64,000 bases of DNA from Azolla caroliniana (taxonomy: Eukaryota; Plantae; Polypodiophyta), in contig JBHGNT010000005.1 of assembly GCA_043228905.1 (NCBI GenBank), positions 15,872,001 through 15,936,000 of the forward strand. Direction: 5' to 3'. The notes below the pieces were generated by a model that was not told where the DNA came from, did no database searches, and worked only from the letters and a program-made list of their open reading frames with translations. This document shows positions 1-64,000 of this stretch, piece after piece; position 1 is the stretch's first letter, and every line of letters starts with the position of its first letter. The translations under genes and the position numbers were made by a program.

Positions 1-738
1 CCCAAACTAGGGGAAAAACCACGGCAGCCCACAGGCTGCAAACTGTCACTATGTAGGAATATACAACAGTGAGTTCACTGAGGCAACGACCTCGTGCTCA
101 CATATCTTCGCCACAGGCGGCGGTTACAACAGAGGCAACGACCTCGTCTCTCTCTCTGTACAGTTACTTACTCTTACTTCTTCTTACACCAACAAGAAAG
201 AATGACGACAACACAATATTAGTTTGCCCTAAGTCATATTTATACTAATATGACTTTTCGGCTATTTACAAATATAACCACAATGGGCTCTCAGAAACAT
301 ATTTACGAATATGTCTCTTCCTTCGGTTCATACCGGGCCTGCACCATCCGGCTCTCCGTAGCCGGGTACTCCTCATCCGGTTCATACCGAGCCTGCACCA
401 TCCGGCTCTCCGTAGCCGGGTACTCCTCATCCGATTCACACCGGGCCTGTACCATCCGGCTCTCCGTAGCCGAGTACTCCTCATCCGGTTCACACCGGGC
501 CTATACCATCCGGCTCTCCGTAGCCGAGTACTCCTCATCCGGTTCACACCGGGCCTGTACCATCCGGCTCTCCGTAGCCGAGTACTCCTCATCCGGTTCA
601 CACCGGGTCTGTATCATCCAGCTCTCCGTAGCCGGGTACTCCTCATACCGTTTCGGTCGAGGCCTATCGGCCGAGGCCGAGTCTGTTCGTCGGCACTGTT
701 CTTCTCCCTTCCCATCCGGAGGGACCTGTCTCCCAACA
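1..738 (-). mobile_element. Ty1/copia LTR (5' LTR or solo LTR, left end off-window), same family as the LTR of element C at 59352
   Basis: The reverse complement begins TGTTGGGAGACAGGTCCCTCCGGATGGGAAGGGAGAAGAACAGTGCCGACG, nearly identical to 59352 onward. Same TATA region (TTAGTATAAATATGAC) and (GA)n tract. It abuts copia RT/RNase H coding sequence at 739. Confidence 0.9.
325..645. repeat. About 6 tandem copies of a 54-bp CCGG-rich unit in the LTR U3 region
   Basis: Unit CCGGTTCACACCGGGCCTGTACCATCCGGCTCTCCGTAGCCGAGTACTCCTCAT. It also appears as an 18-aa periodicity in ORFs 250..798 and 266..601. Confidence 0.9.
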
Positions 739-2681: not shown

Positions 2682-5575
2682 CATCATCACAAACAATGAC
2701 AATTTCACCATCACATGTGGTTGTTTGGGTCATTTTTCTTATTGGCTGTGGTTCCATTCTTTTGGTCTCTCATCTTCTTTCTACAATCTCTTTGATAATG
2801 ATTTGGACCACACCACAATAATGACATGAAAAATGCTTCTTAAAATCTTTCCTATTTTTGGATTTAGACCTCCCCTTAGAGTTATTTCTATTATATTGTG
2901 GACCCCGAGTGTGGCTTCTTCCTCTATTTGAGGTATTTTCTGTGACTAAGGCTTTATGCTTAAAGTTGTAATCATGCTCTTTGTCATGCTTCTTCATTAA
3001 GATGACTCGACTTAAGCGTATCCAATATCATCTTTCCTTGTGGTGTTGAATTCCCAAGTGTCACCACAATTGTTTTCCAACTATCAAGGAGAGAGCCTAA
3101 CAATAATAAAGCCAATACATGATCTATTAGAGGTATGTCTAAAAAGACAGTTTGATTTATCAACCCTTGAAATACATTAAGGTGCTCAGCCATACTAGAG
3201 CCATCTTGATATCTCAACCTCACAATCTTTCTGAATACAAAGGATCTATTCAAGGCATCTTTAGTTTCAAACATACTCTCGATTTTCTTCCACAATACAT
3301 CTATTTTGGTTTCATTATCAACGAAAATAAATAAATAAATATTAATAGTTCTTAGGAATACGGTTTCCTTCATGACAAGGAAACCGTAAGTGTATGGGCA
3401 TCGTCAATGTGTGGTTGTTTTTAAATGCATGACTTCAAAAGTCGATGCATCTACTTTCTCTAGTTTGGCTGTACCACATTGTATGTACCGGTAACCAAAA
3501 ATCCTTGCATAACAACATATCCCTCATTTTGAACTTCCATACTGAATAGTGTTGAGAAATCGATGCGGAATAGATCACAATAAACGAACTACGTGCTGAA
3601 ATATGAATCACAAGAATACACCAGAAAGACAAGATAAACAGATGTACACAGAGATTTACATGGAAACCCTAAAACGAGGAAAACCACGGGAATAGAACTT
3701 CACGATACAAATAGTGGATATACAATACAGAGAGGATTACAACACTCTTGCAAGTGGATCAACCGCACAAGGCTCTTCGCGTTTGTTGTTGCTCACACAG
3801 CTATGGCGCGGCTCATGCTTCTCTCTCTCACTCACTCACTCTCTACACACACAGTTCTTCACCACACATAAAGTTTTCCCTAGTTGTATATATACTTACA
3901 CAACTTTCTGGCTATTTACATGTATAGTCACCCGAGTTGGCTATTTACACGATTCCGGTTTTGGCCTCGGCCAAGTCACTCATCAACTCGGCTTCTCTCT
4001 CTTTCCCATCTAGAGGGACTTGTTTCCAACAAACTCCCCCTTCACTCCTGTGGGAGAAATCTGTCAGTCCTGTATTTTGTCGACAGACTCTGAGTCCGTC
4101 CATAGGTAGGTTCTTCGTCAGCATGTCAGATCCATTGTCATCGGTATGGATATTCACAATGTATGTGTTTGGTCCGGGAGTGGTATGTCGCATTCTTGGC
4201 TAAGTGTATGGCGCTTTGACTGTCACAGTGAAGCAAGAACTCCTTTTGCTTCATGCCTAGTTCGTTGAGAAAATTTCTCATCCAGATAAACTCTTTTTCA
4301 GCTTGTACAGCTGCCATATACTCTGCCTTTGTAGTCGACAAGGCTACAGACTTCTGCAGTCGTGACTGCCACGACACTGCTCCCCCTGCATAGGTCATCA
4401 CGTACACTGAATTGGATTGGCTTGAGTCGGTATCTCCAGACATGTCTGAATTGGTGAAACCTTCCAGCACACACAGGTTTTCCGACACCATACCTTAGGC
4501 ACACCTCTGAGGTGCCTTTCAGGTACCTGAGTATCCACTTCACTACTGCCCAGTGTTCTCTCCATGGATTACTCATATATCGGCTTACTGCTCCCACAAC
4601 AAATGTTATGTCCGGTCTCGTATAGACCATAGCATACATTAGATTGCCGACTGCTGAGGCATATAGTACCTTCTTCATCTCAGCCTTTTCCTTCTGCCCT
4701 CTCGGACATTGCTTCGCATTCAAGCTGCAATTTGTCGGCAACACGGAGTCGACCGGCTTTGCATTCGACATGTTGAACCTCTCTAGGATCTTCGTCACAT
4801 ACTTATGTTGTGACAACCATAGCACCTTCCGAGCTTTGTCTCGAGTTATGTGCATTCCTAGGATTTGCATTGCCGATCCAAGGTCTTTCATGGCAAATGA
4901 CTTGCCGAGCGCTTTCTTCAAGCTTCCAATCTTCCTTGTGTCTTGACCGACTATCAACATATCATCAACATATAGCAAGAGAATAAAAAAATCTCCTTCC
5001 TCGTACCTTTTGAAGAACACACAGTGATCGGCCTGTGTTTTCTGGAACCAATGTTCCATCATGAAGGACTCGAATTTCTTGTACCATTGGCGTGGAGCTT
5101 GTTTCAGTCCGTACAAGCTTGTTAGGAAACAGGTCCCTCCGGATGGGAAGTGAGAAGAACAGTGTTGATGAGCAAACTCGGCCAAGGCCGAAACCGGATG
5201 TGGTGTACCTGGCAAGGAAGACCCGGTGAGAACCGGATGACAAGTACCCGGCAATGGAAGGCCCGGTGAGAACCGGATGTGGAGTACCCGGCAACGGAAG
5301 ACCCGATGAGAACCGGATATGGAGTACCCGACTACGGAAGACCCGGTGAGAACCGGATGACGAGTACCTAGCAAGAGCCGGATGGTGAAGGCCCGGTGAG
5401 AAGTGCTCACCGAATGAAGGGACATATTCGTAAATATGTTTTCTGAGAGTCCATCGGGGCTATATTTGTAAATAGCCAAAAAGTCATATTAGTATAAATA
5501 TGACCTAGGGAAAACTCAGTAGATTATTAGAGTTGTCATTCTTGTTGGTGTAAGATTTGAGCGCGTAACTGTGTA

Positions 5576-5627
<52 letters not shown>

Positions 5628-7257
5628 GAGGTCGTTGCCTCTGTTGTAACCGTTGCCTGTGGCGAAGATAGCAAGCTCGAGCTCGTTTGCCTCGGTGCTT
5701 TATTATTGTACATTGTGATATAGTGATAGTTTGCAGTCTGTGGGCTGCCGTGGATTTTCCCTAGTTTGGGTTTTCCACGTTAACATCCTGTGTATTGTTC
5801 TCTTCACTGTGTCGTGCGTGCATTACCCGTTTTCTGTGTTTGATCCTAGGCTCGGTTGTGGCCGAGCGTTGTTCATCGGGAGCGTGTATTCCTGTCAAAG
5901 TGGTATCAGAGCGAGGCGACATAGAAAAATGGACGATTTGTTGGGAGGCATGTTCAAGCTCACCGGCTCCAACTATTCGGTGTGGAAGTCGAGGATGAGG
6001 GACATGCTCGTGGTTAAAGATCTTTGGTTGCCGGTTCAGTTCGGGGACAAGAGACCGGACAAAATCAATGCCATGATATGGGAGGTGATGCACATGAAGA
6101 CAACGGCATACATACGGTGCTTCATCGACATGAGTCTATACAACAACTTCAATGAAGAGAGCAAGGCTCATGAGCTCTGGGAGAAGATCGGCATTATGTT
6201 TCAGAACAAAAATGTTGTTAATCAGGTTTCGGTATTTCGAAAGCTAGTAAGACTCCGGTACCAAGATGGCTCCAGCATGGCGGAGCACATGAATGCCTTC
6301 CAGGGGCTGATCCACCAGGCAACATCATTGGAAGTACCTCTCGCCAATGAGGTACTAGCACTACTCCTGCTCGGTTCCCTCCTAGATAGCTGGGAGACAT
6401 TGGTTATCACTTTGGGCAACGCCGGGGCGGAAGGGAAACGGTTATATCCCTGGCAAGAGTGAAGTCGAGCTTGCTAGATGAGGAGGCGCGTCGGAAAGAC
6501 AAGGATACGAATTCCGACTCCAAAGCGCTCATTACCAAATCTGAACGCGGAAGATAGAGGAACCGTAGTCCCCAGAACCGGGAGAAGTCGGGGACACGGT
6601 CAAAGTCAAGGGGGAGGCCTACCTGCTTCTATTGCGGCAAGATGGGACACTTCAAGAAGAACTGTCGGCACTTCCGAAAAGACAAGGAAACCGATGGTAC
6701 CGATTCAAAGCGGACACCGGACCAGAACGGTCCAGCTCATCGTGGTCCTTCCCGATTAAGCGGCAAAGCAGTTTGGGAGGACATTACGGGAGGATGTTGG
6801 GGATTACGAGAGACAGCATTACGATGAATGGATTTGAATTTGAGTATTAGGGATACAATCGAATGAGGCAAGCAATCCAAGAACTTCAAATTTGGATGGA
6901 GGCAATGGCCAAATGATTATGGAGGTAGATGAACAAAATGAGACAAGAACAAGAAGCAAATCACTATTATTACATCCCAAACTCAGAGTCTTGATGATCA
7001 AAAAACTGAATTTGGGTGGACATACATTTGGATTTACATCCTTAAGATTAAGGCATGAGAAATGTGTGCAATTTCTTACAAACATTCCAAAAGCTCAACA
7101 ACCTTTGGAAATTCACATCCCTTAATCTTTTGGTGATTTTGGAAAGCATTTTCAGAAACCATGAAAAGATAGGATCCTTTGCATTATTACAATCCACACA
7201 CATGTTATGTATACGTTTGATCCCGATATCTCACGTATCACTACAAACACAATGTGA

Positions 7258-7971
7258 TCAAGAATTGGAGATGATTTTCTTGAGATATTGAATCTCGGTA
7301 GCATTGACCCCGAAGGACCACGCGAGGAGGGCATCATCGATGGCAAGTTGAGAGGCAAAGATGGCTCCCGGGATGCGAGAAGTTCCCGGGTTTTGGCTAT
7401 TAAAGGACACAATCCCGACCGCATGGGTTTCCCCAACATTCATCTGAAAGTGAATTAAGCCTTGGGGGATGATGAACAGATCTCCGGCAGAGAGAGTGGC
7501 CGCGAATAGCTTCTCGTCAGAGCTAACGAACCCGGCAAAGAGGGTACCTTGGAGGACATAGATGAGTTCCGAGCCACGCGGGTGGACATGTGGCGGGTTT
7601 ACACCTCCGGGATTGAAATCAGATCTGGAAGCCGAGAGGCCCATGGTGTTGAGGCCCGGGAAGTTTGCGGCATTTGCGCGCATAGCCACGTACCCAAACT
7701 TGGATGCCGAAACATTCCCGAGAGTGCGCAGAAGAATCGATGCGAAGTCCGATCCGGTCGCGTTCGCTGGATTCTTTCATACAAAGCCATTCACTCTGGT
7801 GGTCGAGTTGGTGTCAGCGACACAGAAGTCTTGTAGGGGGGTGGCATCGGTGGCCGACACAACCACGATGATACCCATCACGATCGTGCACCACAACATT
7901 AAGGAAGTAAAAGAAGAAGAAGAAGAGAAGGAGGAGGAAGAGGAAGAGGAAACTCTAATACCCATCTTCAT
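7258..7971 (-). pseudogene. GLP: Germin-like protein (cupin, Mn-binding), intronless, with one in-frame TGA; embedded in copia B
   Basis: ORFs 7777..7971 and 7258..7689 are in the same frame. They read as signal peptide, TDATPLQDFCVAD...VNGFV*KNP, germin box 1 GGVNPPHVHPRGSE and germin box 2 GDLFIIPQGLIHFQMNVG...FNSQNPG. The TGA at 7779-7777 replaces the conserved second Cys. Confidence 0.92.
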
Positions 7972-8054
7972 CTTTGCCTTTGCTTGGCTTTTCTTCTAAC
8001 ACTCTCATATATGTATGTAGTTCGTTCCTCGGAGCCTCATATATGTAGTTCCCA

Positions 8055-8160
8055 GAGCCTAGGTGGAATCTCTCCTTCATGGCTTATAATATTGGGTTAA
8101 AAGATTTGGAGCCTAGGTGGAATCTCTCCTTCGTGGCTTATAATATTGGGCTAAAAGATT
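8055..8160. repeat. Two tandem ~54-bp copies upstream of the germin-like gene
   Basis: GAGCCTAGGTGGAATCTCTCCTTC(A/G)TGGCTTATAATATTGGG(T/C)TAAAAGATT occurs twice. Confidence 0.85.
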
Positions 8161-11100
8161 CTCGCTTGCAAATTGAGAACCCTAAAGTCAAACCTTTGCT
8201 AGGTCTTGTATGAGATCTCGAAATCGTGAAGTACAACTCTAGGAAGCATAAAGTCAACTATGGGAGAGTAACCACATTTTTATAGGAGCCTTGTGTAGCA
8301 CCTTTCATAACGGACCGGAAGGAAACAACAGCAATCACGGTAAGTGAAGAAGAGTTGATGCTCATCACCGAGGAGAGTGAGATAAACCTTGTCGGCGACG
8401 AGATGACCTGGGTGGTCGACTCCGGAGCGTTGTTCCACCTTACCCTGGACCGGAAATGCTTCTCATCCTACTCAGCCGGTGATCACGGCTGTGTCCGGAA
8501 GGGGAATGAAGGTACATGCCGAATTGTCAGCATAGGAGACGTGTGGTTGACAACACCAACCGAATGCAAGCTGTTGCTGAAGGATGTCCGACACGTTCCG
8601 GAGGTTTGTCTGAACCTGATATCAGCCGATCGGCTAGATGATGAAGGCTACACAGGTAGCATCCGGAACGGTGTTATGAAGTTCAGCAAAGGGAGCCTAA
8701 TTGTGGCTCGAGCCCGTAAGGTAAACACCTTGTACCTGATGAATGCCCGGTTATGCCCGGAAGAAGTGAACGTGGCATCCGACACTACCGGTGAGTTGTG
8801 GCACAAGAGGCTGTGTCACATGAGCGAGAAGGGGATGAAGAGGCTTGCAGACGACAACCTCATTCCAGTGAAGAACGTGCACTAGGAGAAGCGCATTGAT
8901 TGTCTTGCCGGTAAACAAAACCGGACCTCCTTCCGATTGAGGCCACCGATGAGACGTAATGCACCACTGGAGGTGGTGCATACTGATGTATGTCAAGTGG
9001 ACACGAAGTCACATGCTGGATCGCAGTACTTCGTGATGTTCATACATGACCACAACTGGAAGCTGTGGGCCACACCGTTGAAGACGAAGGATCAGGTGCT
9101 ATCCGTCTTCAAAGAGCTCCACGCGAGAGTGGAAAGAGAAACCGGTCGGAAGCTGAAGGCGGTTCGAGCAGATAACGAAGGTGAATACCGGGGGCAGTTC
9201 GAGGAGTACTGTCGCTCGAAGGGAATTCGGCTCGTATTTACCGTGCCGAAGATGCCAGAACTAAACGGGTTGGCCGAGAGGATGAACTGGACCATAATGG
9301 AGAGGGTCCGGAGTATGTTGGCGCATGCAAAATTACCCAAGACGTTTTGGGTTGAGGCGCTGTCGACAGCGACATATGTGATAAACAGATCACCCTTAGT
9401 GCCCTTGGATGGAGACACACCACAAAAGGTGTGGACCGGTAAGCAAGTCTCCTACCGGCATCTGAAGGTGTTCGGGTGTCTCATGTACGTGCATGTGGCT
9501 AAGGACCGGAGAGGAAAGTTGGATCCAAAGACCCGGCCATGCATATTCCTCGGATACGGCGATGATAAGTTCGGCTACCGAGTGTGGGATCCAGTTGACA
9601 AGAAGGCTTTCCGGAGTCGAGATATTATCTTCATGGAGGACAAGACTCTTGCCGACTGGGAGTCGGAGAAGAAGATAATGAACTCCGATGAGATTCGGAC
9701 ACACCCGGCTAAGAACTGGTTGACACTCGAGGAACCAGCCGGTTACGGTGAGGATGCCGAACCGGTAGAAGAAGAAGCAGAGGAAGCTGAAATTGGAACC
9801 GGCCAAGATCCCGAATCAGATTCGGATGAAGAACAAATAGAGGAGCCGGTTGCCGAAAGCCAAAGACGGAGATATCCTCTCAGAGAGAGAAGGGCCCCCC
9901 GGAGATTTCCGGATGCAGAGCATGTGCTGCTGACCAATGAGGAGAGCCGGAAAGCTTCGAAGAAGCAAAGGATGACACACACAACCGCAAATGGTTAAGT
10001 GCCATGCAGGATGAGATGGATTCCCTGCATGAGAACCATACGTACGAATTGGTGGAGTTGCCGAAAGGAAAGCGGGCACTCCGAAATAAGTGGGTGTACA
10101 AGTTGAAACCGGGAGATGCCGGCAACCCCCCGAGATACAAAGCCAGGATCGTGGTGAAGGGGTTCCAGCAGAAGAAGGGCGTGAACTTCGACGAGATATT
10201 TGCCCCGGTAGTAAAGATGACCTCCATCCGGACGGTGCTGAGTATAGCGGCAAGCATGGACCTCGAGGTAGAGCAGCTGGACGTGAAGACGGCATTCCTT
10301 CACGGTGACCTCGAAGAGGAGATCTACATGCAGCAACCGGTAGGATTCGTGGAGAAAGGGAAGGAGCACCTAGTTTGCTGGTTGAAGAAGAGCTTGTACG
10401 GACTGAAGCAGGCTCCCCGACAATGGTACAAGAAGTTCGACTCCTTCATGACCGATCAAGGGTACCACAAAACACAGGCTGATCACTGCGTGTTTGTGAA
10501 GAAGTTCGAAGGAGGCGACTTCCTGATACTCCTTCTGTACGTGGACGACATGTTGATCGTCGGATGGGACCAAGCCAAAATACGGATGCTGAAGAAGGCT
10601 CTCAACCGAACTTTCGCAATGAAAGACTTGGGTCCGGCAAGATAGATGTTGGGGATGCATATCATCCGGAACCGGCCAACGAAGCAATTGTGGCTGTCAC
10701 AAGAGAAATACGTGACAAAGGTGCTTCAGCGATTCAACATGTTAGAAGCGAAACCGGTTGGATCGACACTCCCGGCAAACTGCAGATTATCCGATAAGCA
10801 AAGCCCGAAGACGAAAGCCGAGAAGGCTGATATGATGAAGGTTCCATATGCCTCTGCCGTCGGGAGCTTGATGTACGCAATGGTGTGTACCCGATCGGAT
10901 ATAGGATACGCAGTCGGAGTGGTGAGCCGGTTTATGAGCAATCCCGGCAAGGAGCACTGGAACGCGGTCAAATGGATACTCCGGTACTTGAAGGGCACTT
11001 CGAACATGTGTCTCCGATTCGGCTCACGGTAATCCTCAACTCGACGGTTTTACCGATTCGGACATGTCGGCTGATGTGGATACCAGCCGGTCTACATCCG

Positions 11101-14100
11101 GGTATGTAATGACATATGCAAGGGGAGCTGTTTCGTGGCCGTTGAGGCTGCAGAAGACGGTTGCGTTGTCAACCATGGAAGCGGAGTACATGGCGGTTGT
11201 GGAAGCCGGCAAGGAAATACTATGGATGAAGGACTTCATCGGAGAGCTCGGTATCCGGCAAGATGAATACCGGCTCTATTGCGACAGTCAAAGTGCCATC
11301 CACCTTGCTAAGAACGTAGTGTACCACTCCAAGACAAAGCACATCCAATGTAGATATCATTGGATCCGGGAGCGAGTAGAAGATCGAGAGTTTGCACTGA
11401 TGAAGATCCACACGGCCAAGAATGGGTCAGATATGCTGACCAAAGTACTGATACCTGACAAGCTGGATGCATGTCGGAAGCGGATCGGACTAGTAAGACA
11501 TCCCATGCCGGAGTGAAGGGGGAGTTTGTTAGGAAATAGGTCCCTCCGTATGGGAAATGAGAAGAACAGTGTTGATGAGCAAACTCGGCCGAGGCCGAAA
11601 CCGGATATGGTGTACCCGGCAAGGAAGACCCGGTGAGAACCGGATGTGGAGTACCCGGCAACGGAAGACCCTGTGAGAACCGGATGAGGAGTACCCGGCA
11701 ACGGAAGACCCGGTGAGAACCGGATGACGAGTACCCGGCAAGAGCCGGATGGTGAAGGCCCAGTGAGAAGTGCTCACCGGATGAAGGGACATATTCATAA
11801 ATATGTTTTCTGAGAGTCCATCGGGGCTATATTTGTAAATAGCCGAAAAGTCATATTAGTATAAATATGACTTAGGGAAAACTCAGTAGATTATTAGAGT
11901 TGTCATTCTTGTTGGTGTAAGATTTGAGCGCGTAATTGTGTACAAAGAGAGAGAGAGAGGAAGAGGTCGTTGCCTCTGTTGTAACCGCTGCCTGTGGCGA
12001 AGATAGCAAGCTCGAGATTGTTTGCCTCGGTGCTTTACTATTGTACATTGTGATATAGTGATAGTTTGCAGTCTGTGGGCTACCGTGGCTTTTCCCTAGT
12101 TTAGGTTTTCCACATTAACATCCTGTGTACTGTTCTCTTCACTGTGTCGTGCGTGCATTACCCGTTTTCGGTGTTTGATCCTAGGCTCGGTTGTGGCCGA
12201 GCGTTGTTCATCGGGAGTGTGTATTCCTGTCAAAGCTTTTCCTCGGTCGACACACCAGATTCTCTTTCCCTTTCTCCTCAAAGCCTTCGGGTTGCTGCAT
12301 GTAGATTTCTTCTTCCAACTCCCCGTGCAGAAATGTGGTTTTGACATCCAACTGTTCGATCTCCAGGTCCATGTTGGTCGCTATGCTCAGAACAATTCGT
12401 ATGGATGTCATCTTCACGACTTGTGCGAAAATTTCGTCAAAGTTGACGCCCTTCCTTTGTTCACATGTTGAGTCAGATTCGACTCTATTTGGGACAGGAC
12501 TCCTTTGTCTTTCCTCCTTGCCTCCTCGTTTAGAATGCTTGTCTTCACAATCTGTAAAGACAAGTTGTCTTCTTGACAGGAGGTGTTGAGAGTAACCACC
12601 AGGTTCTCCCAGCTTTCCGGTAGTGTGCACATCAGCAGGATGGCATGCATTGCGTCATCCAGGGGAAACTTGGTCGCTGCAAGTTGATTCACATACCCCA
12701 TGAATGTGTTGATGTGTTCAACGATGCTTTCACCGTCTCTGTATTTCAGTTGTACGATTTTTCTCATTAGCGAGGTTCTGTTTAGCGCATTCTTCCTCTC
12801 GTACAAACCTGACAGCTTCTGCCACATCTCGTGGGCATTCGTGTCGTTCGCCACATGCTGAAGGACACTTACATCGACACATTGTCGGATTGTGGCCACC
12901 GCCTTCCTATTCAGAAGCTTCCAATCCGACTCCAATACCCCCCTGGGTATTTTTGCTCTGTCGACTGACTCGTACAAGTCTTTGACTATGAGAAGGTCCT
13001 CCATCTTGATCTTCCAGTCTACATAGTTCTGTGAGTTGAGAACTATCATACCTGGGAAACCGCTCACACCTCCTTTCATGCTTGCACCTCAAGCTCTGAT
13101 ACCAGTTTGTTGAGAAATCGACGCGGAAGAGATCACAATAAACGAACTACGTGCTGAAATACGAATCACAAGAATACACCAGAAAGACAAGATAAACAGA
13201 TGTACACAGAGATGTACGTGGAAACCCTAAAACGGGGAAAACCACGGGAACAGAACTTCACTATACAAATAGTGGATATACAATACAGAGAGGATTACAA
13301 CACTCTTGCGAGTGGATCAGCCGCACAGGCTCTTCGCGTCTGTTGTTGCTCACACAACTATGGCGCAACTCATGCTTCTCTCTCTCACTCACTCACTCTC
13401 TACACACACAATTCTTCACCACACATAAAGTTTGCCCTAGTTGTATATATACTTACACAACTTTCTGGCTATTTACATGTATAGTCACCCGAGTTGGCTA
13501 TTTACACGATTCCGGTTTCGGCCTCAGCCGAGTCACTCATCAACTCAGCTCCTCTCTCTTTCCCATCTGGAGGGACTTGTTTCCAACAAATAGTTGGGTC
13601 CAACCAGCTTAATCATCCCACCAAGAGATTCATCCATCTTCCAATCTTATGGAATGTATGAACCTCTGCTTTGATACCACTTGTTAGGAAATGGGAATTG
13701 GGATTAGCTTAGACAACCAACTCTGTAAATAACAGATGTAACTGAAAATAGAGTACACCTGATTTTTATGTGGAAAACCACAGGACACTTAGGGTACCAA
13801 AACTTTCACTATGCTTAGAGTACAAGTGAGAATAACTTCTCTAGTGTTCACTAGGGGAATACATGTGCATCAATGCAACAACCTTGGTAACAGTCTTCAC
13901 ATGGATGGATGGAAAGAACAAACAAGAAGACAGAAAAAAAAGCAGAACAACAAAACCTGATAGAAACAGATACTAAAGTCGTTTCCCAGTCTAAGGGTAC
14001 AAGCTTCTTGGTAGCACGAACAACCCTTTCGAATTCTCTATCCTTTCATTTGCAAGATCTTGAAATGCTCTCGCACTCTCGTCTTTTTTTCTTCTTCAGT

Positions 14101-14786: not shown

Positions 14787-15195
14787 CTCTCCTTGATGAA
14801 GCAGAAAATCAAAGAAGAACCAAACGCCCTTGGATGTCGGGTTTCAAAGCAACTCGACGAGATGTAGAAGCAATAAAGAAAATAAGGGAACGTGAACTAC
14901 ACCGCCTAGATGCCATGACTAGGGCACTCTATGCATCGGGACCATGGGTCACACCCACACCAAAAACTTTTGACCTCCCACTTCTTTTTGAGAGACTTGG
15001 GTGGAAATGAGAGTAGGCTTAGTGCAAAGTTTTGTACACTACTAGAACTTTCTTAGCTTAAGCTATTTTCTTTTATTTTAGTTTTGATGATTGGATAAAC
15101 ACTCATTTTTGTTGTAACCCAATTGTCTCATGGGCCAAATTTGGCCTTAGAAGACGTTAATATATCTTTCTTTCTTTCTTTCTTTCTCTCCCTCT
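14787..15195 (+). mobile_element. 5'-truncated copy (3' end) of the RTE-X-like LINE at 46371-49790, inserted in the CT-rich tract of an LTR-like repeat
   Basis: Near-identical to 49386-49790 (LLDEAENQRRTKRP...PWVTPTPKTFDL and 3' UTR). It ends in (CTTT)n and is flanked by CT-rich DNA on both sides. Confidence 0.9.
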
Positions 15196-15807
15196 CTCTC
15201 TTCCCTCCCCTTAACGTTGAACCCCCTTGGGAGGGGGGTGGAGCCATCCTAGGCACCACCCCCCACCCCATAATGCTACTCAATGCTTGTCATCTCTCTC
15301 ACCATCAATCCCATAACGCTCATCATCCTCATCAAACACACCATCTCCATCACCAATATCATTACCATTAACCCTAACCCCTAAACGTACAACAAAGGCT
15401 GCTAATGGCCTTTGTATTTTGGAATCAAGGATGGCAACCTTTTTTGGGCCATATCAATATGGTTAATTTTGTAATATCAAATCAATATTTGAATCTCATC
15501 TTGGTTGTATATGACTCAATGCAAATCTTATTCAATGAGTCAGATGTTGAGGACTTTGAGATAATGGATTAAGCCTTGTATTTTTTATGGTTTTTGATTC
15601 ATACATACATACATACATGTGTGTGTGTGTGTATAAACTAGGGTTGTAATGCTTTAGTAAAAACTTGTTTCTTGGTTGGGGGTCTTCTTAGATGAGCTTT
15701 TTTATCACTTTATGATACTAATGTGGGGGATTAGATGCTCTCCTAGTGCTGAAATCATTCTCGAAGACTTGAAATCATGCTCTACTAGTGTTGCATAGCC
15801 CTAGTAA

Positions 15808-20756: not shown

Positions 20757-23700
20757 ATGGAACCTTCATCTCCTCCTCCTCCTCCTCTTTCTTCTCCTTC
20801 TTCTCCGTTTGATGGTCATCATGGAAAGCTTCGTGTAGCAGGGAATGAACACCATCTTCACTATCATCATCATAAGCATGAAGAAGAAGAAGAAGAAGAA
20901 GAAGAAGAAGAAAAACAGAAACATCTTCATCTTCATGACCATGGAGCAGAAGTAAACAGAATAGAAGAAGAAGAAGAAGAAGAAGAAGAAGAAGAAGAAG
21001 AAGAAAAGCAGAAGAAACAACAACCAATCTTCTTCTCTCGACATTACTCATTCCAGGAGAATCTTCATCCACAACAACAAGACCATCGCCATCACCATCA
21101 TCACAACCACCACTACCCACACCAACAACAACAGCAGCAGCAGCAGCAGCAACAACACACCTTCTCTCGCCATGCTTCCTTTAATCTGCCTCCAAAAAGT
21201 AAACCCTTCGGATTTGCAATTTCCCCTGTTCCTCCCCCTCCTCCTTCTTTTCCGTCCTTTTCCTTTTCCTCTTCTTCCTCTTCCTCCCCCTCTCCTTCGA
21301 TTTCTCGAATGTCTTCTTTCCAAGATCCAAAATCTCGGAGGGCTCTGAATCGCATTGTTTCCATTGATCGGCACCGAGCTCCTGAAGTCTTCAGCTCCCA
21401 AGAAGACGTTTGGAAAGGCCAGTTTGTGTCCACTCATTCCAATATTAACCAAGAGAAAGAAGAGAAGGAAGAAAAAAAGAGGATTTTAGGCAAACATAAT
21501 TCGCCCAAGTTTTCAACCTCAACTTGGAGGAGCTTGGCTCTTTCAACTTTAAGGTCTGGCAAAAGAAGTGGCCCTCGGAAGCTTCTCATGCTTATCTTTC
21601 TCAACTTTACATATTCCTTTGTGGAACTTTTCTTAGGTCTTCTTTCTGGACGAATTGGTAAGTTTTCTGCTTTATTCCATTATTTCAAGTAGATCTTACC
21701 CATGATTTCAACATGAGTCAGTCTGTAGTTAAAAGCAAGTTTACTCCACTACTGTGAGTTAATTCTCAAACAATGAGTAAGAACTAGGAGATTGGCAAAT
21801 CATGCAACTTTATGGGAATGCAAATCATATGTAGTTTGTGAAGTGGATGAAAATATAGTATCTTATCGAAATGCTCACTGACAGAAACATGATTCCTTTT
21901 GCAGGCTTGGTGTCAGACGCCTTCCATTTGACTTTTGGTTGTGGACTCCTGTCATTTTCTTTCATTGCAATGCTCTTCACAAAAAGATTTCCAGATGAAG
22001 CCTATACTTATGGGTAAGCTAAACTTTTGTGGCCTTTTTGATGTCATACTTGATTTTCTTGAATGAAGTAATTCGAGCAAGAATCAAGATTGAAATTTAA
22101 TTCTATAAATTTCCAAGGGTATCTTGCACATTAGTTATTATGGGGAGTTACTGCTAGACAATGTGACATGTGATATCCTTATGATTTATTGTATCTAGAA
22201 GATATGGAGAATTCGTTATCAATTATCTTTGATCTCCATGCAAGTATGAAGTACGATATTAATATAATTGAATTGCATATTTTTCAAAGAATGAATTTGT
22301 TGGAAAAGTGTATGGTCAATTTCTTGACTGGCCAGTATTTGAATAGTCTGTTGGATATTACCTAGATTGTGTGTCACATACTGTGTTGCACATGGTTATT
22401 TGAACAAAAGGTTGCTTGTGGACATAATTATATGCATCTTGTTGACAAATTCTGCCCATCACTCTCCCGAGAAGCAATAGGAATTCAGAATAAGTAGAGT
22501 TCACTTGATATGAATGTTGATATATGAGCCTCAGCTATCCATGAGCACTGACGATGACGGTCGGTGCTATGGAAAAGTTTTGCGTTGTAAAAATCTATGC
22601 TTCTTGAGATGTATTTCTTGTGTAGTGTAGGTTTTTGTTTTTAAGATGAGAATATCTAGATATTATGACTGTCTCAGTCTCAGATACTCTGATCTTTATA
22701 GTGGGTGTTTGATTTGCAGAATCCTATAGAACTTGTGCAACAATATGAATGCTTGCTTTCTTAGGTAGAGAGTAGAGCCTATTATGCTTTGGACTTGACA
22801 CTAATTTTGATTTGCATTCAGGTATAAACGGCTGGAGGTTCTGGCAGCATTCACAAATGCTGTAAGTATCTAACAGTCAGGTTTACAGCATGCTTGCGGT
22901 GTGATTCTATGAGTGAGGCGATAAATAATAATATTTGTGGTTCTTCTGGATAGACAGCTCTTTCTGCTTTTCCTTTCGTTTTCTCTTGCTGTTGAAGCCC
23001 TGCATGCTTTTGTTCACGATGAGTCGGTGCACAAGTAAGACAAGTCGTAGCATTTTGTTTTCTATATTAAAATATTATGATAAATGATTTGATTGGATGT
23101 GGCATCAAAAGGTTGAGAATGAGGTATTTGAGGTTTTGTACAGACACTACCTGATTGTATCAGCAGTAACGAATCTTTTTGTTAACCTTGTGGGAGTATG
23201 GTTTTTTCGTGGCTATGCAAGAATCCGGATAGGTATGAAATATTTTAGCAATGATTTTAACTATTAAAGCTTTTGTTTTGTTTGCGAAATCAGAAGAAAA
23301 CATTGTCTATTTATGATGAGCATTTTAGATAGGTAAAAATAAGTTATGGGTTCTACAGTACTGAGTGTTCAACCGCTACATTCTGTATGGATGTAGCTGG
23401 GTTTGTAGGGTTGTCTGGTGGAGACTAGAACATCATGTATTTAACCTTACGTTTGTCTAGAAGGGGGAGGCAGGGAGAAATCACTCTTCCTGATGTGAGT
23501 GATACAAATAAATAAGAATGTGCATTACATTGAAAAAGAGAGAGGTGGAATCATAATCTTCGTGATTTCTAATGTGCAGCATACCGAAAGGCCGAGGATA
23601 TGAATTATCATTCGATTTTTCTCCATGTGCTATCTGATTCCATCCGAAGGTAGGAACTTTTATATTTAGTGAATGACTTGGGGAATTACATGTCCTTGAA

Positions 23701-39647: not shown

Positions 39648-40950
39648 TATCAGTTATGCAAAAGGTTGTGACATCAGATCATTTTCCCATATGTTTTGAG
39701 TTTAATAAACATGGGGTACATATGCACAAAACATTGCTTGATCGAGTTCCTTTGAGGTCTAATTCTTCTTTATTATTTCATTCCTTATTTGATGCATATA
39801 TGCAACAAAATTTTGGCATGTTTCTAGAACAAGTTATTTCAAAAGGATGGCATGCATGGATACAACACTACAAAATATCAGTGATATTCACCGTATGTAT
39901 GGTATGACTAATTCTAAAAGATGTAAGAAATTGTCAGTTATGCAAGAGGTTGTGACATCAGATCATTTTCCCATATGTTTTGAGTTTAATAAACATGGGT
40001 AGATATGTACAAAACATTGCTTGATCGAGTTCCTTTGAGGTTTACTTCTTCTTTATTATTTCACTCCTTATTTGATGCATATATGCAACAAACTTTTGGC
40101 TTGTTTTCAAAACAAGTTATTTCAAAAGGATGGCATGCATGGATACAACACTACAAAATATTAGTGATATTCACCGTATGTATGGTATGACTAATTCTAA
40201 AAGATGTAAGAAATTGTCAGTTATGCAAGAGGTTGTGACATCGGATCATTTTCCCATATGTTTTGAGTTTAATAAACATAGGTAGATATGTACAAAACAT
40301 TGCTTGATCGAGTTTCTTTGAGGTTTACTTCTTCTTTATTATTTCACTCCTTATTTGATGCATATATGCAACAAACTTTTGGCTTGTTTTCAAAACAAGT
40401 TATTTCAAAAGGATGGCATGCATGGGATACAACACTACAAAACATCGGTGATATTCATTGCATGTATGGTATGACTAATGCTAAAATACGTAAGAAATTG
40501 ATTGATAAGTTTTCACATATTCTTACGCGATGCAATGTACCATTGATGAATAATCCACACGATGAAGAGCTTTTGGATTTTCAAGTTCAAATATAGGACA
40601 TTGTGAAGAATTTGTCTTGTCAAAGTTCTCAATAGATAAGACTACGTCAGTTAAAGAAGGAATTTATAGATACAACAAGTTATTTCAAAAGGATGGCATG
40701 CATGGGATACAACACAACAAAACATCGGTGATATTCATTGCATGTATGGTATGACTAATGCTAAAAGACGTAAGAAATTGATTGATAAGTTTTCACATAT
40801 TCTTACGCGATGCAATGTACCATTGATGAATAATCCGCACGATGAAGAGCTTTTGGATTTTCAAGTTCAAATATAGGACATTGTGAAGAATTTGTCTTGT
40901 CAAAGTTATCAATAGATAAGACTATGTCAGTTAAAGAAGGAATTAATAGA
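39648..40950. repeat. Internal tandem duplications in the L1-like LINE (three ~283-bp units, then an overlapping ~280-bp duplication)
   Basis: TCAGTTATGCAA.AGGTTGTGACATC at about 39650, 39935 and 40217. ACAAGTTATTTCAAAAGGATGGCATGCATGGGATAC...TCAGTTAAAGAAGG at about 40396 and 40675. Confidence 0.85.
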
Positions 40951-42115: not shown

Positions 42116-42475
42116 TGTCATGACGACATACATTTTGGCCTTACAAGGATTTGAGCCCAAGACGTCTTGGTCTATATGTTAGACCTTTAACCATTATACT
42201 AACATATATAATGTATAGTTATAATAAATGTATTATTAGTTATTACAAGACATTTAGAGTATTCTAGAATATTCTAGGATATTCCATGATTATATTAAAT
42301 ATCATAAATATCTAAAATATTCTAGAACATTCTAGAATACTCTATAAGGACCTATAAATAGGTGTCTATTCATTCATCACAACTCATTCGGTTCAACACC
42401 AGTTTGTAGCCCCTTAGCCTACTCTTTGTAATCCTTCCTGTCTTATAATATAAACTCTCTTTCCATTTCTAGTGT

Positions 42476-42522
<47 letters not shown>

Positions 42523-59351: not shown

Positions 59352-62300
59352 TGTTGGTAGACAGGTCCCTCCGGATGGGAAGGGAGAAGAACAGTGCCGA
59401 CGAACAAACTCGGCCGAGGCCTGTTGGCCTCGGCCGAAACGGTATGAACCGAATGGGGAGAACCCGACTTCGGAGAGTCGGATGGTGTAGGCCCGGTATG
59501 AACCGGATGAGGAGTACCCGACTGCGGAGAGCCGGATGGAGCCCATCGAGGCTACATTTGTAAATAGACGAAAAGTCATATTAGTATAAATATGACTTAG
59601 GGCAAACTTTTAGTTTTTTTGGGTGTGTAGTTGTAGTTTGTGTGATTATTCTTCCTTGTTGGTGCAAGAAGAAATCAGAGCACGTAACTGTACAGAGAGA
59701 GAGAGAGAGAGAGAGATGAGGTCGTTGCCTCTGTTGTAACCGCCGCCTGTGGCGAAGATCTGAGAGCACGAGGTCGTTGCCTCAGTGATCTCACTGTTGT
59801 ATATTTCTACATAGCGACAGTTTGCAGCTTGTGGGCTGCCGTGGTTTTTCCCCTATTTTGGGGTTTTCCACATATACCTCCTGTGTACCATTTCTCCTCT
59901 TTTGTGTCGCGTTTCATTACCTGTTTTTCTGTGTATGTAACGAATCTCGGTTGTGGCCGAGCGTCGGACAAAAGGAACGTCAAGTTCTCAACAAGTGGTA
60001 TCAGAGCGAAATCGACACAGAAAATGGATGAATCGTTTGGCGGCATGTTCAAGCTCACCGGCTCCAACTATTCAGTGTGGAAGTCGAAGATGAGGGACAT
60101 GGTCGTGGTAAAAGACCTCTGGCTGCCGGTTCAGTTCGGGGACAAGAGACCGGACAAAATCGACGCCGCGATATGGGAGGTGATGCACATGAAGACAACG
60201 GCGTACATACGGTGCTTCATTGACATGAGCCTGTACAACAACTTCAATGAAGAGAGTAAGGCTCATGAGCTCTGGGAGAAGATCGGCACAATGTTCCAGA
60301 ACAAAAATGCTGTCAATCAGGCGTCGGTATTCTGGAAGCTTGTAAGACTCCGGTACCAAGATGGCTCCAGCATGGCGGAGCATATGAATGCCTTCCAGGG
60401 GCTGATTCACCAGGCAACGTCATTGGAAGTACCTCTTGCCGATGAGGTCCTAGCGCTACTCCTGCTCGGTTCCCTCCCGGATAGCTGGGAGACGTTGGTT
60501 GTTACTTTGGGCAACGCCGGGCCGGAAGGAAAACGGTTATCCCTAGCAAGAGTAAAGTCGAGCTTGCTAGATGAGGAGGCTCGTCGGAAAGACAAAGATA
60601 CGAGCTCCGACTCCAAAGCGCTCCTTACCGAATCGGAACGCGGAAGACATAGAAACCGTAGTCCCCAGAACTGGGAGAAGTCGGGGACACGATCAAAGTC
60701 AAGGGGGAGGCCTACTTGCTTCTATTGCGGCAAGCCGGGACACTTCCAAAAGAACTGTCGGCATTTCCGTAAAGACAAGGAAACCGACGGTACCGATTCG
60801 AAGCAAACCCCGAACCGGAACGGTACAGACCGGAACGGTAAAGACCGGAGGGGGCCGGACCGGAAGGGAACGACGGCAATTGCGGCAAGTGAAGAGGAGT
60901 TGATGCTCATCACCGAGGAGAGTGAGATAAACCATGCCGGCGATGAGATGACCTGGGTGGTAGACTCCGGAGCGTCATTCCACCTTACCCCGGACCAGAA
61001 ATGCTTCTCATCCTACTCAACCGGTGATCACGGCTGTGTCCGGATGGGGAATGAAGGAACATGCCGAATTGTCGGCATAGGAGACGTGTGGCTGACAACA
61101 CCAACCGGATGCAAACTGCTGTTGAAAGATGTCCGACACGTTCCGGAAGTTCTTCTGAACCTGATATCAGCCGGTCGGCTAGATGATGAAGGCTACACGG
61201 GTAGCATCCGGAACGGTGTCATGAAGTTCAGCAAAGGGAGCCTGATTGTGGCTCGGGCCCGGAAGGTAAACACACTGTACCTGATGAATACCCGGTTATG
61301 TCCGGAAGAAGTGAACGTGGCTTCCGACACTGCCGGTGAGCTGTGGCACAAGAGGCTATGTCACATGAGTGAGAAGGGGATGAAGAGGCTTGCAGACGAC
61401 AACCTCATCCCAGTGAAGAACGTGCATTTAGAGAAGTGCACTGATTGTCTGGCCGGTAAGCAGAACCGGACCTCCTTCCGACCAAGGCCACCGATGAGAC
61501 GTAATGCACCACTGGAGTTGGTGCATACGGATGTTTGTCAAGTAGACACGAAGTCACATGCCGGAGCGCAGTACTTCGTGACGTTCATAGATGACCACAG
61601 CCGGAAGCTGTGGGCCACACCGCTGAAGACAAAGGATCAGGTGTTATCCGTCTTCAAAGAGCTCCACGCGAGAGTGGAAAGAGAAACCGGCCAGAAGCTG
61701 AAGGCGGTTCGAGCAGATAACGGAGGTGAGTACCGGGGGCAGTTCGAGGAGTACTGCCGCTCGAAGGGAATCCGGCTCGAATTTACCGTGCCGAAGACGC
61801 CGGAACTAAACGGACTGGCCGAGAGGATGAACCGGACCATAATGGAGACGGTCCGGAGTATGCTAGCGCATGCAAAACTACCCAAGAAGTTTTGGGCTGA
61901 GGCACTGTCGACGACGACATATGTGATAAACAGATCACCCTCAGTACCCTTGGACGGAGACACGCCACAGAGAGTATGGACCGGTAAGGAAGTGTCCTAC
62001 CGGCATCTGAGGGTGTTCGGGTGTCTCGCGTACGTGCATGTAGCAAAGGACCGGAGAGGAAAGCTAGATCCAAAGACCCGGCCATGCATATTCCTCGGTT
62101 ACGGTGACGATGAGTTCGGCTACCAAGTGTGGGACCCGGTCGACAAGAAGGTATTCCGGAGTCGAGATATTATCTTCATGGAGGACAAGATGCTCGCCGA
62201 TTGGGAGTCGGAGAAGAAGATAATGAACTCCGAGTCGACTGGTAAGGATAGACTCTACAATGAGCAGACCCAACCGGCAAGAGACCGGTTAGCACTCGAG

Positions 62301-64000
62301 GAACCAGCCGGTTACGGTGAGGATACCGAACCGGCAGAAGAAGAAGTAGAGGAAGCTGAGACCGGAACCGGTCAAGACCCCGAATCGGATTCGGATGAAG
62401 AGCAAATGGAGGAACCGATTACCGAAGCCCGAAGACGTAGATATCCTCTCAGAGAGAGAAGGGCGCCCCGGAGATTTCCGGATGCAGAGCATGTCCTGCT
62501 AACCGATGAGGGGGAGCCGGAAAGCTTCAAAGAAGCGAAGGTTGACACCCACAGCCGAAAATGGTCAAGTGCCATGCAGGATGAGATGGATTCCCTGCAT
62601 GAGAACCATACGTACGAATTGGTGGAGCTGCCGAAAGGAAAGCGGGCACTCCGAAACAAGTGGGTATTCAAGTTGAAACCGGGAGATGCCGGCAACCCCC
62701 CGAGATACAAAGCCAGGATCGTGGTGAAGGGGTTCCAGCAGAAGAAGGGCGTGGACTTTGACGAAATATTCGGCCCGGTAGTAAAGATGACCTCCATCCG
62801 GACGGTGCTGAGTATAGCAGCAAGCATGGATCTCGAGGTAGAGCAGCTGGACGTGAAGACGACATTCCTTCACGGCGACCTCGAAGAGGAGATCTACATG
62901 CAGCAACTGGAAGGATTTGTGGAGAAAGGGAAGGAGCACCTGGTATGCCGGTTGAAGAAGAGCCTATACGGACTGAAGCAGGCTCCCCGGCAATGGTATC
63001 GGAAGTTCGACTCCTTCATGACCGATCAAGGGTACCACAAGACGCAGGCCGATCACTGCGTGTTTGTGAAGAAGTTCGAAGGAGGGGACTTCCTGATACT
63101 CCTCCTGTACGTGGATGACATGTTGATCGTCGGACGAGACCAAGGAAAAATACGGATGCTGAAGAAGGCTCTCAACCGGACCTTCTCAATGAAGGACTTG
63201 GGTCCGGCAAGACAGATGTTGGGGATGCACATCATTCGGGACCGGTCAGTGAAGCAACTATGGCTGTCACAGGAGAAGTATGTGACAAAGGTGCTTCACC
63301 GGTTCAACATGTCAGATGCAAAACTGGTCGGATCGACACTTCCGGCAAACTGCAAGTTGTCCGGCAAGCAAAGCCCGAAGACAAAAGGAGAGAAGGCAGA
63401 TATGATGAAGATTCCATATGCCTCTGCCGTCGGGAGCTTGATGTACGCAATGGTTTGTACCCGACCGGACATTGGATACGCAGTCAGAGTGGTGAGCCGG
63501 TTCATGAGTAATCCCGGCAAGGAGCATTGGAACGCGGTCAAGTGGATACTCCGGTATTTGAAGGGCACTTCAAATATGTGTCTCCGATTCGGCACCGGAA
63601 AACCTCAACTGGACGGTTTCACCGATTCGGACATGTCGGCTGATGTGGATACCAGCCGGTCTACATCCGGGTATGTGATGACATATGCAGGGGGAGCTGT
63701 CTCGTGGCAGTCGAGGCTGCAGAAGACGGTTGCATTGTCAACCATAGAGGCGGAGTACATGGCGGCTGTGGAAGCCGGCAAGGAAATATTATGGATGAAG
63801 GACTTCATGGGGGAGCTCGGTATCCGGCAAGAGGAATACCGACTCTACTGCGACAGTGAAAGTGCCATCCACCTTACTAAGAATGCGGCCTACCATTCCC
63901 GGACAAAGCATATCCAGCGGAGGTATCACTGGATCCGGGAAAGGGTAGATGACCAGGAGTTCACATTGGCGAAGATCCACACGGCCGAGAACGGGTCAGA
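59352..64000 (+). mobile_element. Ty1/copia element C (close relative of B); 5' LTR 59352-59993, PBS 59996-60007; runs off the window
   Basis: TG...CA LTR and TGGTATCAGAGC PBS. The internal region is collinear with B. It is inserted in the RT of element Y; expected TSD CATTA. Confidence 0.95.
60024..64000 (+). CDS. Copia Gag-Pol polyprotein, apparently uninterrupted (at least 1325 codons, 3' end off-window)
   Basis: ATG at 60024 (MDESFGGMFKLTGSNYSVW). The same frame ends ...FTLAKIHTAENGS at the window edge, and the ORF track lists no terminated ORF in this frame. Motifs CFYCGKPGHFQKNC, VVDSGAS, HTD/RADNGGEY/NGLAER, YVDD and FTDSD/EAEY are present. Confidence 0.85.
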   Translation, partial: MDESFGGMFKLTGSNYSVWKSKMRDMVVVKDLWLPVQFGDKRPDKIDAAIWEVMHMKTTAYIRCFIDMSLYNNFNEESKAHELWEKIGTMFQNKNAVNQASVFWKLVRLRYQDGSSMAEHMNAFQGLIHQATSLEVPLADEVLALLLLGSLPDSWETLVVTLGNAGPEGKRLSLARVKSSLLDEEARRKDKDTSSDSKALLTESERGRHRNRSPQNWEKSGTRSKSRGRPTCFYCGKPGHFQKNCRHFRKDKETDGTDSKQTPNRNGTDRNGKDRRGPDRKGTTAIAASEEELMLITEESEINHAGDEMTWVVDSGASFHLTPDQKCFSSYSTGDHGCVRMGNEGTCRIVGIGDVWLTTPTGCKLLLKDVRHVPEVLLNLISAGRLDDEGYTGSIRNGVMKFSKGSLIVARARKVNTLYLMNTRLCPEEVNVASDTAGELWHKRLCHMSEKGMKRLADDNLIPVKNVHLEKCTDCLAGKQNRTSFRPRPPMRRNAPLELVHTDVCQVDTKSHAGAQYFVTFIDDHSRKLWATPLKTKDQVLSVFKELHARVERETGQKLKAVRADNGGEYRGQFEEYCRSKGIRLEFTVPKTPELNGLAERMNRTIMETVRSMLAHAKLPKKFWAEALSTTTYVINRSPSVPLDGDTPQRVWTGKEVSYRHLRVFGCLAYVHVAKDRRGKLDPKTRPCIFLGYGDDEFGYQVWDPVDKKVFRSRDIIFMEDKMLADWESEKKIMNSESTGKDRLYNEQTQPARDRLALEEPAGYGEDTEPAEEEVEEAETGTGQDPESDSDEEQMEEPITEARRRRYPLRERRAPRRFPDAEHVLLTDEGEPESFKEAKVDTHSRKWSSAMQDEMDSLHENHTYELVELPKGKRALRNKWVFKLKPGDAGNPPRYKARIVVKGFQQKKGVDFDEIFGPVVKMTSIRTVLSIAASMDLEVEQLDVKTTFLHGDLEEEIYMQQLEGFVEKGKEHLVCRLKKSLYGLKQAPRQWYRKFDSFMTDQGYHKTQADHCVFVKKFEGGDFLILLLYVDDMLIVGRDQGKIRMLKKALNRTFSMKDLGPARQMLGMHIIRDRSVKQLWLSQEKYVTKVLHRFNMSDAKLVGSTLPANCKLSGKQSPKTKGEKADMMKIPYASAVGSLMYAMVCTRPDIGYAVRVVSRFMSNPGKEHWNAVKWILRYLKGTSNMCLRFGTGKPQLDGFTDSDMSADVDTSRSTSGYVMTYAGGAVSWQSRLQKTVALSTIEAEYMAAVEAGKEILWMKDFMGELGIRQEEYRLYCDSESAIHLTKNAAYHSRTKHIQRRYHWIRERVDDQEFTLAKIHTAENGS

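What the first reader, a model, noticed from the sequence alone, without database searches (positions are those of the whole stretch)
6736..8310. Copia retrotransposon carrying a full-length host germin-like protein gene in antisense orientation
Seen: B aligns with its intact relative C up to ...AACGGTCCAG (about 6735) and resumes at CGGACCGGAAGG (8311). Between them lies about 1.57 kb absent from C. It holds an intronless germin-like CDS with about 340 bp of upstream sequence (TATA-like CCTATAAAAA on the minus strand near 8280, plus a 54-bp duplication) and about 520 bp downstream. I see no poly(A), TIR, TSD or Helitron ends. Known: GLPs are apoplastic Mn-cupins (SOD/oxalate oxidase) used in stress and defence. 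Inference: this is capture of a genomic gene with its flanks between gag and protease, either propagated with the element (transduction) or added later as repair filler DNA. The antisense layout could also yield siRNAs against the GLP family.
Basis: partly seen in the sequence, partly recalled or inferred. Interest (0 to 1): 0.85.

Follow-up and report, generated by a model that had tools for sequence, protein, structure and literature searches.

The report
Dead defence gene patched into retrotransposon
A broken copy of a plant germin-like defence gene, with its own upstream and downstream DNA, sits backwards inside a dead jumping gene; it is likely a one-off DNA-repair patch of a known kind, not cargo that the jumping gene spread.

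Summary
The insert is real, but the gene is not intact. A 7.1-kb Tnt1-like Copia (B, 5120-12232, 5-bp TSD) holds about 1.58 kb of host DNA between gag and protease, in antisense. It spans a whole germin-like CDS (7971-7258), but codon 65 is a stop where relatives have Cys, and 11 residues are private against 0-2 in the three closest relatives. A native, intact, intronless paralog (L001) matches from 8309 to 6851, so the missing intron is not a sign of retroposition. Public DNA contigs show the donor's own flanks beyond 6730 and 8309. The junctions show a 2-bp overlap, one extra base, about 16 bp of element lost, and no TSD, TIR or poly(A). The family lays thousands of contigs, but only one contig per run crosses an insert end, in 2 of 4 runs; no sister copy was seen. 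The copy's decay is about as old as B (ratio 0.7-1.0). Best reading: DNA-level templated repair insertion into this copy (0.6). Transduction is unsupported but not excluded; siRNA is untested. A known kind of event.

The parts
5115..5119 (.). Left target-site duplication AAGCT of element B (inside antisense Copia A)
   Evidence: same five letters at 12233-12237
5120..5897 (+). 5' LTR of B (TG...CA)
   Evidence: 31 differences in 706 aligned sites against the 3' LTR
5901..5912 (+). Primer-binding site (iMet type, recalled)
   Evidence: sequence
5929..6731 (+). gag of B, with one stop and a 2-base gap relative to C's frame
   Evidence: Pfam Retrotran_gag_2
6730..6731 (.). Left junction: 2-bp overlap shared by element and donor (6730-6735 matches C's repeat unit at 5 of 6)
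6730..7257 (-). Downstream flank of the captured gene; native DNA continues beyond 6730; no poly(A)
   Evidence: loose ends in X1 and X5; 91% to L001 over 392 sites
7258..7971 (-). Germin-like CDS, 237 codons, intronless, pseudogene
7777..7779 (-). Premature TGA at codon 65 (Cys in all 11 other rows that cover it, less the one partial row)
   Evidence: also in exact-match contigs of X1 and X2
7972..8309 (-). Upstream flank of the captured gene; native DNA continues beyond 8309
   Evidence: 91% to L001 over 277 sites
8055..8160 (-). 54-bp tandem duplication, each unit with TTATAA; one unit in L001; X5 and X6 contigs skip one unit
8310..8310 (.). Right junction: one base explained by neither donor nor family (filler or substitution)
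8311..11516 (+). pol of B (protease, integrase, RT; RNase H by homology to C), with two stops and frameshifts relative to C in 8311-11431
11514..11526 (+). Polypurine tract
   Evidence: sequence
11527..12232 (+). 3' LTR of B
12233..12237 (.). Right target-site duplication AAGCT
60024..64000 (+). Relative C without the insert: gag-pol open for 1325 codons to the window end
   Evidence: B vs C K2P 0.10

Best explanation
A 1.58-kb genomic copy of a host germin-like gene with its flanks lies in antisense inside Copia element B and carries a stop codon; it was likely pasted in once as templated filler when a double-strand break in this element was repaired, at about the time B inserted or somewhat later. 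Shown: genomic origin with native flanks on both sides, junction anatomy, loss of about 16 bp of element, stop codon and neutral-looking decay, a dead gag-pol. Inferred: a break in the 15-bp tandem-repeat stretch between gag and protease, invasion of a member of the multi-copy GLP family by synthesis-dependent strand annealing or microhomology-mediated repair, and later decay in methylated TE chromatin. The structure likely does nothing now.
For: Native donor DNA continues beyond 6730 (X1, X5) and beyond 8309 (X1; X5 in table 5c), so the tract is a contiguous piece of genome cut at arbitrary points. L001 is an intact, intronless native locus with no Copia DNA upstream. The junctions show deletion, 2-bp overlap and a 1-base filler without TSD or poly(A), the marks listed for SDSA by Pace et al. 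(PMC2671141, Results part 1 read). Antisense orientation, and 170-220 bp of DNA upstream of the conserved TTATAA motifs, do not fit copying of the GLP mRNA (inference from how RT copies templates). 17248 and 18523 contigs lay on 6300-8800 in X1 and X2, against 28 and 43 on the insert; one contig per run crosses an end. Window-specific CDS changes are 9 non-synonymous to 3 synonymous on 479:157 sites (omega about 1), and 12 of the 22 variants examined are C-to-T or G-to-A at CG/CHG sites. B versus C pN is 0.048, of which 0.022 is expected after insertion; the rest implies omega about 0.1, which leaves little room for a long non-autonomous history (inference).
Against: Dating does not show the patch came after integration: 16-24 window-specific changes against 23 expected for B's age (ratio 0.69-1.04, Poisson range 0.39-1.54), which also fits capture during or just before B's transposition. 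Replacement of internal ORF plus microsimilarity is also the signature of LTR-mediated retroposition (PMC5131818, passages). The donor is not in the window, so it is more than 5 kb away; Pace et al. could not class such distant cases with confidence. Junction arithmetic on contig depth gives about 1 copy in X2 but up to about 2 in X1 (J 56-86 against a median of 40 for rare joints), and the tool warns that depth is no copy number. The variant lists were cut (40 of 169 rows, 40 of 309) and hand-picked. The junction contig itself is not listed; it is inferred from the count of contigs running over the ends, the first-bin depth and the branch at 6730.
Confidence: 0.6

Rival explanations
1. The gene was patched into a parent element at the DNA level, and the chimera then retrotransposed in trans; B is a daughter copy (true transduction, low copy number).
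For: Insert decay is about as old as the LTR pair, and the range allows a ratio above 1. Both LTRs, PBS and PPT are present. X1 depth at the left end allows up to about 2 copies. Contig assembly can merge near-identical sisters.
Against: Only one end-crossing contig per run in X1 and X2. 6760-6869 is one contig at depth 74 in X1, about donor plus one copy (rough). Little excess of amino-acid change in B's gag-pol beyond its age.
Confidence: 0.17
2. Reverse transcriptase switched from the element RNA onto a co-packaged antisense read-through RNA of the GLP locus and back, during the round that made B (LTR-mediated retroposition).
For: Predicts a capture age equal to the LTR age, as seen. Internal sequence is replaced, and the site is a tandem-repeat stretch.
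Against: Needs an antisense RNA across promoter, CDS and downstream flank, and none is known. Overlap is 2 bp (5 of 6 at best) on the left and 0-1 on the right, against a median of 6 bp in PMC5131818. No intron loss can be shown because the native genes have none.
Confidence: 0.17
3. Assembly chimera, or a separate DNA transposon (Pack-MULE, Helitron) that landed in B.
For: No contig across the right junction was seen in four runs, and no long reads were available.
Against: A branch at 6730 and an end-crossing contig in two runs of different studies and organism labels. Exact-match contigs with the stop exist in X1 and X2. Native flanks directly continue both insert ends, with no TIR or TSD. 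B has one TSD and interrupts A cleanly.
Confidence: 0.06

Closest known systems
Repair-mediated duplication / SDSA filler inside TEs (Pace et al. 2009, PMC2671141, abstract and Results part 1 read; Wicker et al. 2010 in grasses, not held, seen only as cited in PMC3445842 passages)
   Same: Foreign genomic DNA interrupts a TE copy; small deletion, microhomology and filler at the breakpoints; no poly(A).
   Different: 1.58 kb and a whole gene with flanks (proximal vertebrate cases reach 619 bp, distant ones 3.4 kb); the donor is more than 5 kb away; the host is probably a seed-free plant.
LTR-mediated retroposition (Tan et al. 2016, PMC5131818, passages read)
   Same: A host gene sequence replaces part of the internal ORF of an LTR element with both LTRs present.
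   Different: Those cases are mRNA-derived with introns lost and about 6-bp microsimilarity; here the DNA is antisense, includes far upstream flank, has a short overlap, and the parent is itself intronless.
Bs1 of maize and other LTR gene transductions (review PMC13317346, parts 1-2 of 6 read)
   Same: Host gene DNA inside an LTR retrotransposon.
   Different: Bs1 holds gene fragments that became an expressed chimeric ORF; here one whole gene is a pseudogene and no amplification was seen.
TE gene capture in vascular plants and epigenetic conflict (PMC13477047, passages; bioRxiv 10.1101/777037, search listing and start of abstract only)
   Same: Captured gene DNA in Copia and Gypsy elements is reported as widespread across 23 vascular plants; siRNA cross-talk with donors is a published idea.
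   Different: Those surveys count exon fragments; this is a whole gene with both breakpoints resolved. No siRNA data here.
Germin / germin-like proteins (barley oxalate oxidase, PDB 1fi2)
   Same: Cupin_1 match; His128, His130, Glu135 and His174 invariant in 12 aligned rows (their role as Mn ligands is recalled).
   Different: Stop at codon 65. Belongs to a distinct clade of unnamed proteins (support 99) with best named matches of about 50% to Selaginella and Ceratopteris.

Membership tests
Ty1/Copia LTR retrotransposon (B) | Two LTRs with TG...CA ends, 5-bp TSD, PBS and PPT | tested here: met
Ty1/Copia LTR retrotransposon (B) | Order gag, protease, integrase, RT (RVT_2) | tested here: met
   Pfam; relative C is 64-68% identical to proteins labelled TNT 1-94
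Ty1/Copia LTR retrotransposon (B) | Autonomous: open gag-pol | tested here: not met
   insert, 3 stops and frameshifts relative to C
Germin-like protein | Cupin domain with H-x-H-x4-E and distal His | tested here: met
Germin-like protein | Intact ORF with both N-terminal cysteines | tested here: not met
   TGA at codon 65 in place of the second Cys
Germin-like protein | Signal peptide, Mn binding, SOD or oxalate oxidase activity | not testable with these tools
   a hydrophobic stretch precedes the mature start by eye only
Repair-mediated duplication (Pace 2009) | Insert interrupts a TE; deletion, microhomology or filler at breakpoints; no poly(A) | tested here: met
Repair-mediated duplication (Pace 2009) | Donor within 5 kb (their confident class) | tested here: not met
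   no donor in the window, which extends 6.7 kb left and 55 kb right; lowers filing under their proximal class, not the mechanism
Repair-mediated duplication (Pace 2009) | Empty orthologous site (B without the insert) | not testable with these tools
   no genome held
LTR-mediated retroposition (Tan 2016) | Part of the internal ORF replaced, both LTRs present | tested here: met
LTR-mediated retroposition (Tan 2016) | Microsimilarity at both switch points | tested here: inconclusive
   2 bp (5 of 6) left, 0-1 right
LTR-mediated retroposition (Tan 2016) | Derived from the gene's mRNA (introns lost) | tested here: inconclusive
   native gene has no intron; antisense orientation and long upstream flank argue against mRNA
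LTR transduction (Bs1 type) | Same junctions in several elements with different TSDs | tested here: inconclusive
   one end-crossing contig in each of X1 and X2, none in X5 and X17; contigs show presence only
Pack-TIR element or Helitron | TIRs with TSD, or TC...CTRR ends in an AT site | tested here: not met
   ends read (Helitron end motif recalled)

The most novel reading that the evidence does not exclude
B+GLP is a non-autonomous Copia derivative that moved a whole defence gene with its promoter in a fern-like plant, and transcription from its 5' LTR makes antisense RNA that yields siRNAs tuning the native GLP cluster (CDS 93% identical to L001), a regulatory allele that differs between accessions.
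Probability: 0.06. Interest if true: 0.55.

Novelty: new member of a known kind. Interest (0 to 1): 0.24.

Why it matters
It is a clean, dated example of a whole gene with its flanks copied into a TE in a probably seed-free plant, with both donor breakpoints visible. It shows that an intronless gene inside an LTR element need not be a retrocopy. It changes no model. If small RNAs from it were shown to act on the GLP family, it would be a single-locus test of epigenetic conflict outside seed plants.

Tried and rejected
No whole genome is held, so junction and donor searches in the assembly could not be run. A 25-base junction pattern found 0 matches in metagenome contigs. A 22-base donor-flank motif found 0 matches in the window at up to 3 mismatches. 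The 141-aa ORF after the stop is not in the protein collection as an exact sequence. No RNA holder was listed: no evidence either way. X17 (RNA by guess) has cover only over about 6943-7900, no contig at 99% or more (0 of 10), and Cys at codon 65; parts without cover are not used as evidence. X5 shows no end-crossing contig and no window letter at 6793, 7683, 7712 or 7721; this hints that it lacks the copy, but contigs do not prove absence. At 7777 X5 has 22.5 of 83.4 depth as G and the rest is not shown, so a native copy with the stop is not excluded. No contig across the right junction was seen in any run; the tool filters records, so the hole proves nothing. A first dating (6 differences in 758 flank sites against 31 in 706, P 8e-6) suggested a much younger capture; I rejected it because it left out X5's CDS contig with 15 differences in 430 and used a pooled rate (redone). 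The window-versus-L001 codon count was out of register by one codon and was replaced. AACGGTCCAG/AACGGACCGG as a 10-bp TSD was rejected: these are units of the family's 15-bp repeat, and donor DNA overlaps both. The tree is the quick version, built from 59 of 127 proteins then held; it does not name the host. A literature search for germin-like + retrotransposon + captured gave 11 papers, of which 10 were listed and none by title or abstract start concerns this; the fern + germin searches were read as listings only. No supplements were read.
Full report
Observation. Element B is a Copia of 7113 bp (5120-12232) with TG...CA LTRs, a primer-binding site at 5901, a polypurine tract and the duplication AAGCT on both sides. 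It sits inside an antisense Copia A, whose reading frame resumes after the right duplication. The LTRs differ at 31 of 706 sites, 24 of them transitions. Relative C is open for 1325 codons and about 10% diverged from B. B matches C to 6735 and again from 8311. Pfam places the gag domain before the insert and protease, integrase and RT after it. The region of C searched is 64-68% identical to proteins labelled TNT 1-94.

The gene. The minus-strand CDS 7971-7258 is a germin-like cupin with the His-His-Glu-His positions invariant. Over 206 columns the copy has 11 private residues against 2, 0 and 1 in its three closest relatives; the more distant P0124 has 12. Among variants listed in the contig tables, the 12 window-specific CDS changes in 7258-7785 are 9 non-synonymous and 3 synonymous on 479:157 sites, as expected without selection. 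The tables were cut (40 of 169 and 40 of 309 rows) and I picked 22 rows by hand. Exact-match contigs that include the stop occur in runs X1 and X2, so it is not a sequencing error, though X1 may be the source of the assembly.

The donor family. The closest proteins are unnamed (92%, cluster of 4); the best named matches are about 50% (Selaginella, Ceratopteris). In a quick tree of 59 proteins the copy sits in a clade of 10 unnamed rows (support 99) within a weakly supported group (80) of lycophyte and fern rows. The host is probably a fern or other seed-free plant; earlier notes on this genome say the same. Of 17 loci fetched, L001 is a native paralog: intact, intronless, 46 of 642 CDS bases different, 91% identical in both flanks, aligned from window 8309 to 6851, with 602 bp further upstream that match nothing in the window. 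The missing intron is therefore inherited. The TATA-like word at 8284 is not kept in L001; TTATAA in the 54-bp unit is. Several GLP copies are present in each run.

Junctions. Family contigs leave the window sequence after 6731 and rejoin at 8311 with 16 other letters between; C has 31 there, one 15-bp repeat more. Native donor DNA continues beyond 6730 in X1 and X5 and beyond 8309 in X1 and X5. So the tract is 6730-8309, with a 2-bp overlap on the left, one unexplained base at 8310, and no TIR, TSD or poly(A). The donor is not in the window.

Copy number. On 6300-8800, 17248 (X1), 18523 (X2), 12181 (X5) and 3460 (X6) contigs were laid. On 6705-8336 only 28 (X1), 43 (X2), 53 (X5) and 10 (X17) were laid, with 1, 1, 0 and 0 running over an end. 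First-bin depth and the branch at 6730 place that contig at the left junction; it is not listed itself. Rough depth arithmetic gives 9-13 in X2 against a median of 9 for rare joints, and 56-86 in X1 against 40; the tool warns that depth is no copy number. No sister junction was seen, but none is excluded. The right junction was not seen in any run.

Timing. With context-specific rates from the LTR pair, 23 changes are expected in the covered parts of the insert if it is as old as B; 16-24 are seen (ratio 0.69-1.04; range 0.39-1.54 from the numerator alone, and the LTR count carries a factor of 0.68-1.42). The capture is thus about as old as B, and the order of events is open. B versus C has pN 0.048 and pS 0.25; 0.022 per site is expected after insertion, leaving omega near 0.1 before it. 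That argues against a long history as a non-autonomous carrier (inference).

Mechanism. Deletion, short overlap and filler in a TE-interrupting insert are the SDSA marks of Pace et al. (PMC2671141), and filler-based gene movement is described for grasses (cited in PMC3445842). LTR-mediated retroposition also replaces internal sequence, but from mRNA and with about 6-bp microsimilarity (PMC5131818). RT copying of the GLP mRNA would put the gene in the element's sense and could not include DNA far upstream of the promoter (own knowledge; the start site is not mapped). I give 0.6 to a one-off DNA repair patch in this copy, 0.17 to a patch in a parent followed by transposition, 0.17 to a switch onto an antisense RNA, and 0.06 to artefact or another transposon.

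Comparison and verdict. Gene capture by LTR and other elements is reviewed as common (PMC13317346), is surveyed across 23 vascular plants with Copia examples (PMC13477047), and siRNA cross-talk is published for maize (listing). I found no report of a germin-like gene in a retrotransposon in the listings, a narrow search. This is a real, tidy, new instance of a known kind: a pseudogene in a dead element. Interest 0.24.

Noticed in passing
window 20757-21692 (+): 311-aa His/Glu/Gln-rich ORF ending in a hydrophobic helix; no Pfam match. From recall it resembles the first exon of a plant metal tolerance protein (cation diffusion facilitator); untested.
   Followed up: partly
window 3550-4033 and 13108-13590 (-): LTRs of Copia A, which hosts B; K2P 0.047, almost the same age as B (0.046), so B landed soon after A.
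   Followed up: partly
window 46412-49588 (+), with 14788-15200 and 42116-42478: 1058-aa RVT_1 ORF without LTR domains, probably a LINE; two short copies of its parts (96% and 84%) lie elsewhere in the window.
   Followed up: no
window 1-738 (-): LTR related to those of B and C, with a six-copy 54-bp tandem repeat; B's LTR has a related 40-bp repeat whose copy number differs between its two LTRs.
   Followed up: no
window 39650-40950: Tandem repeats of 283 bp (three copies) and 277-280 bp (two copies), 92-98% alike.
   Followed up: no
window 45069-46127 and 56766-57539: Gypsy remnants: SH3 plus chromodomain, and RT plus RNase H.
   Followed up: no
window 8009-8309, in runs X1 and X5: In the donor-like native copy the 300-bp upstream region appears duplicated in tandem: after 8309 the contig returns to sequence like 8009. 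L001 has instead a 25-bp triple repeat at that point.
   Followed up: partly
P0002-P0004, P0055, P0122-P0127: A distinct GLP clade (support 99, long stem) known here only from unnamed metagenome and run assemblies, about 50% from any named protein.
   Followed up: partly
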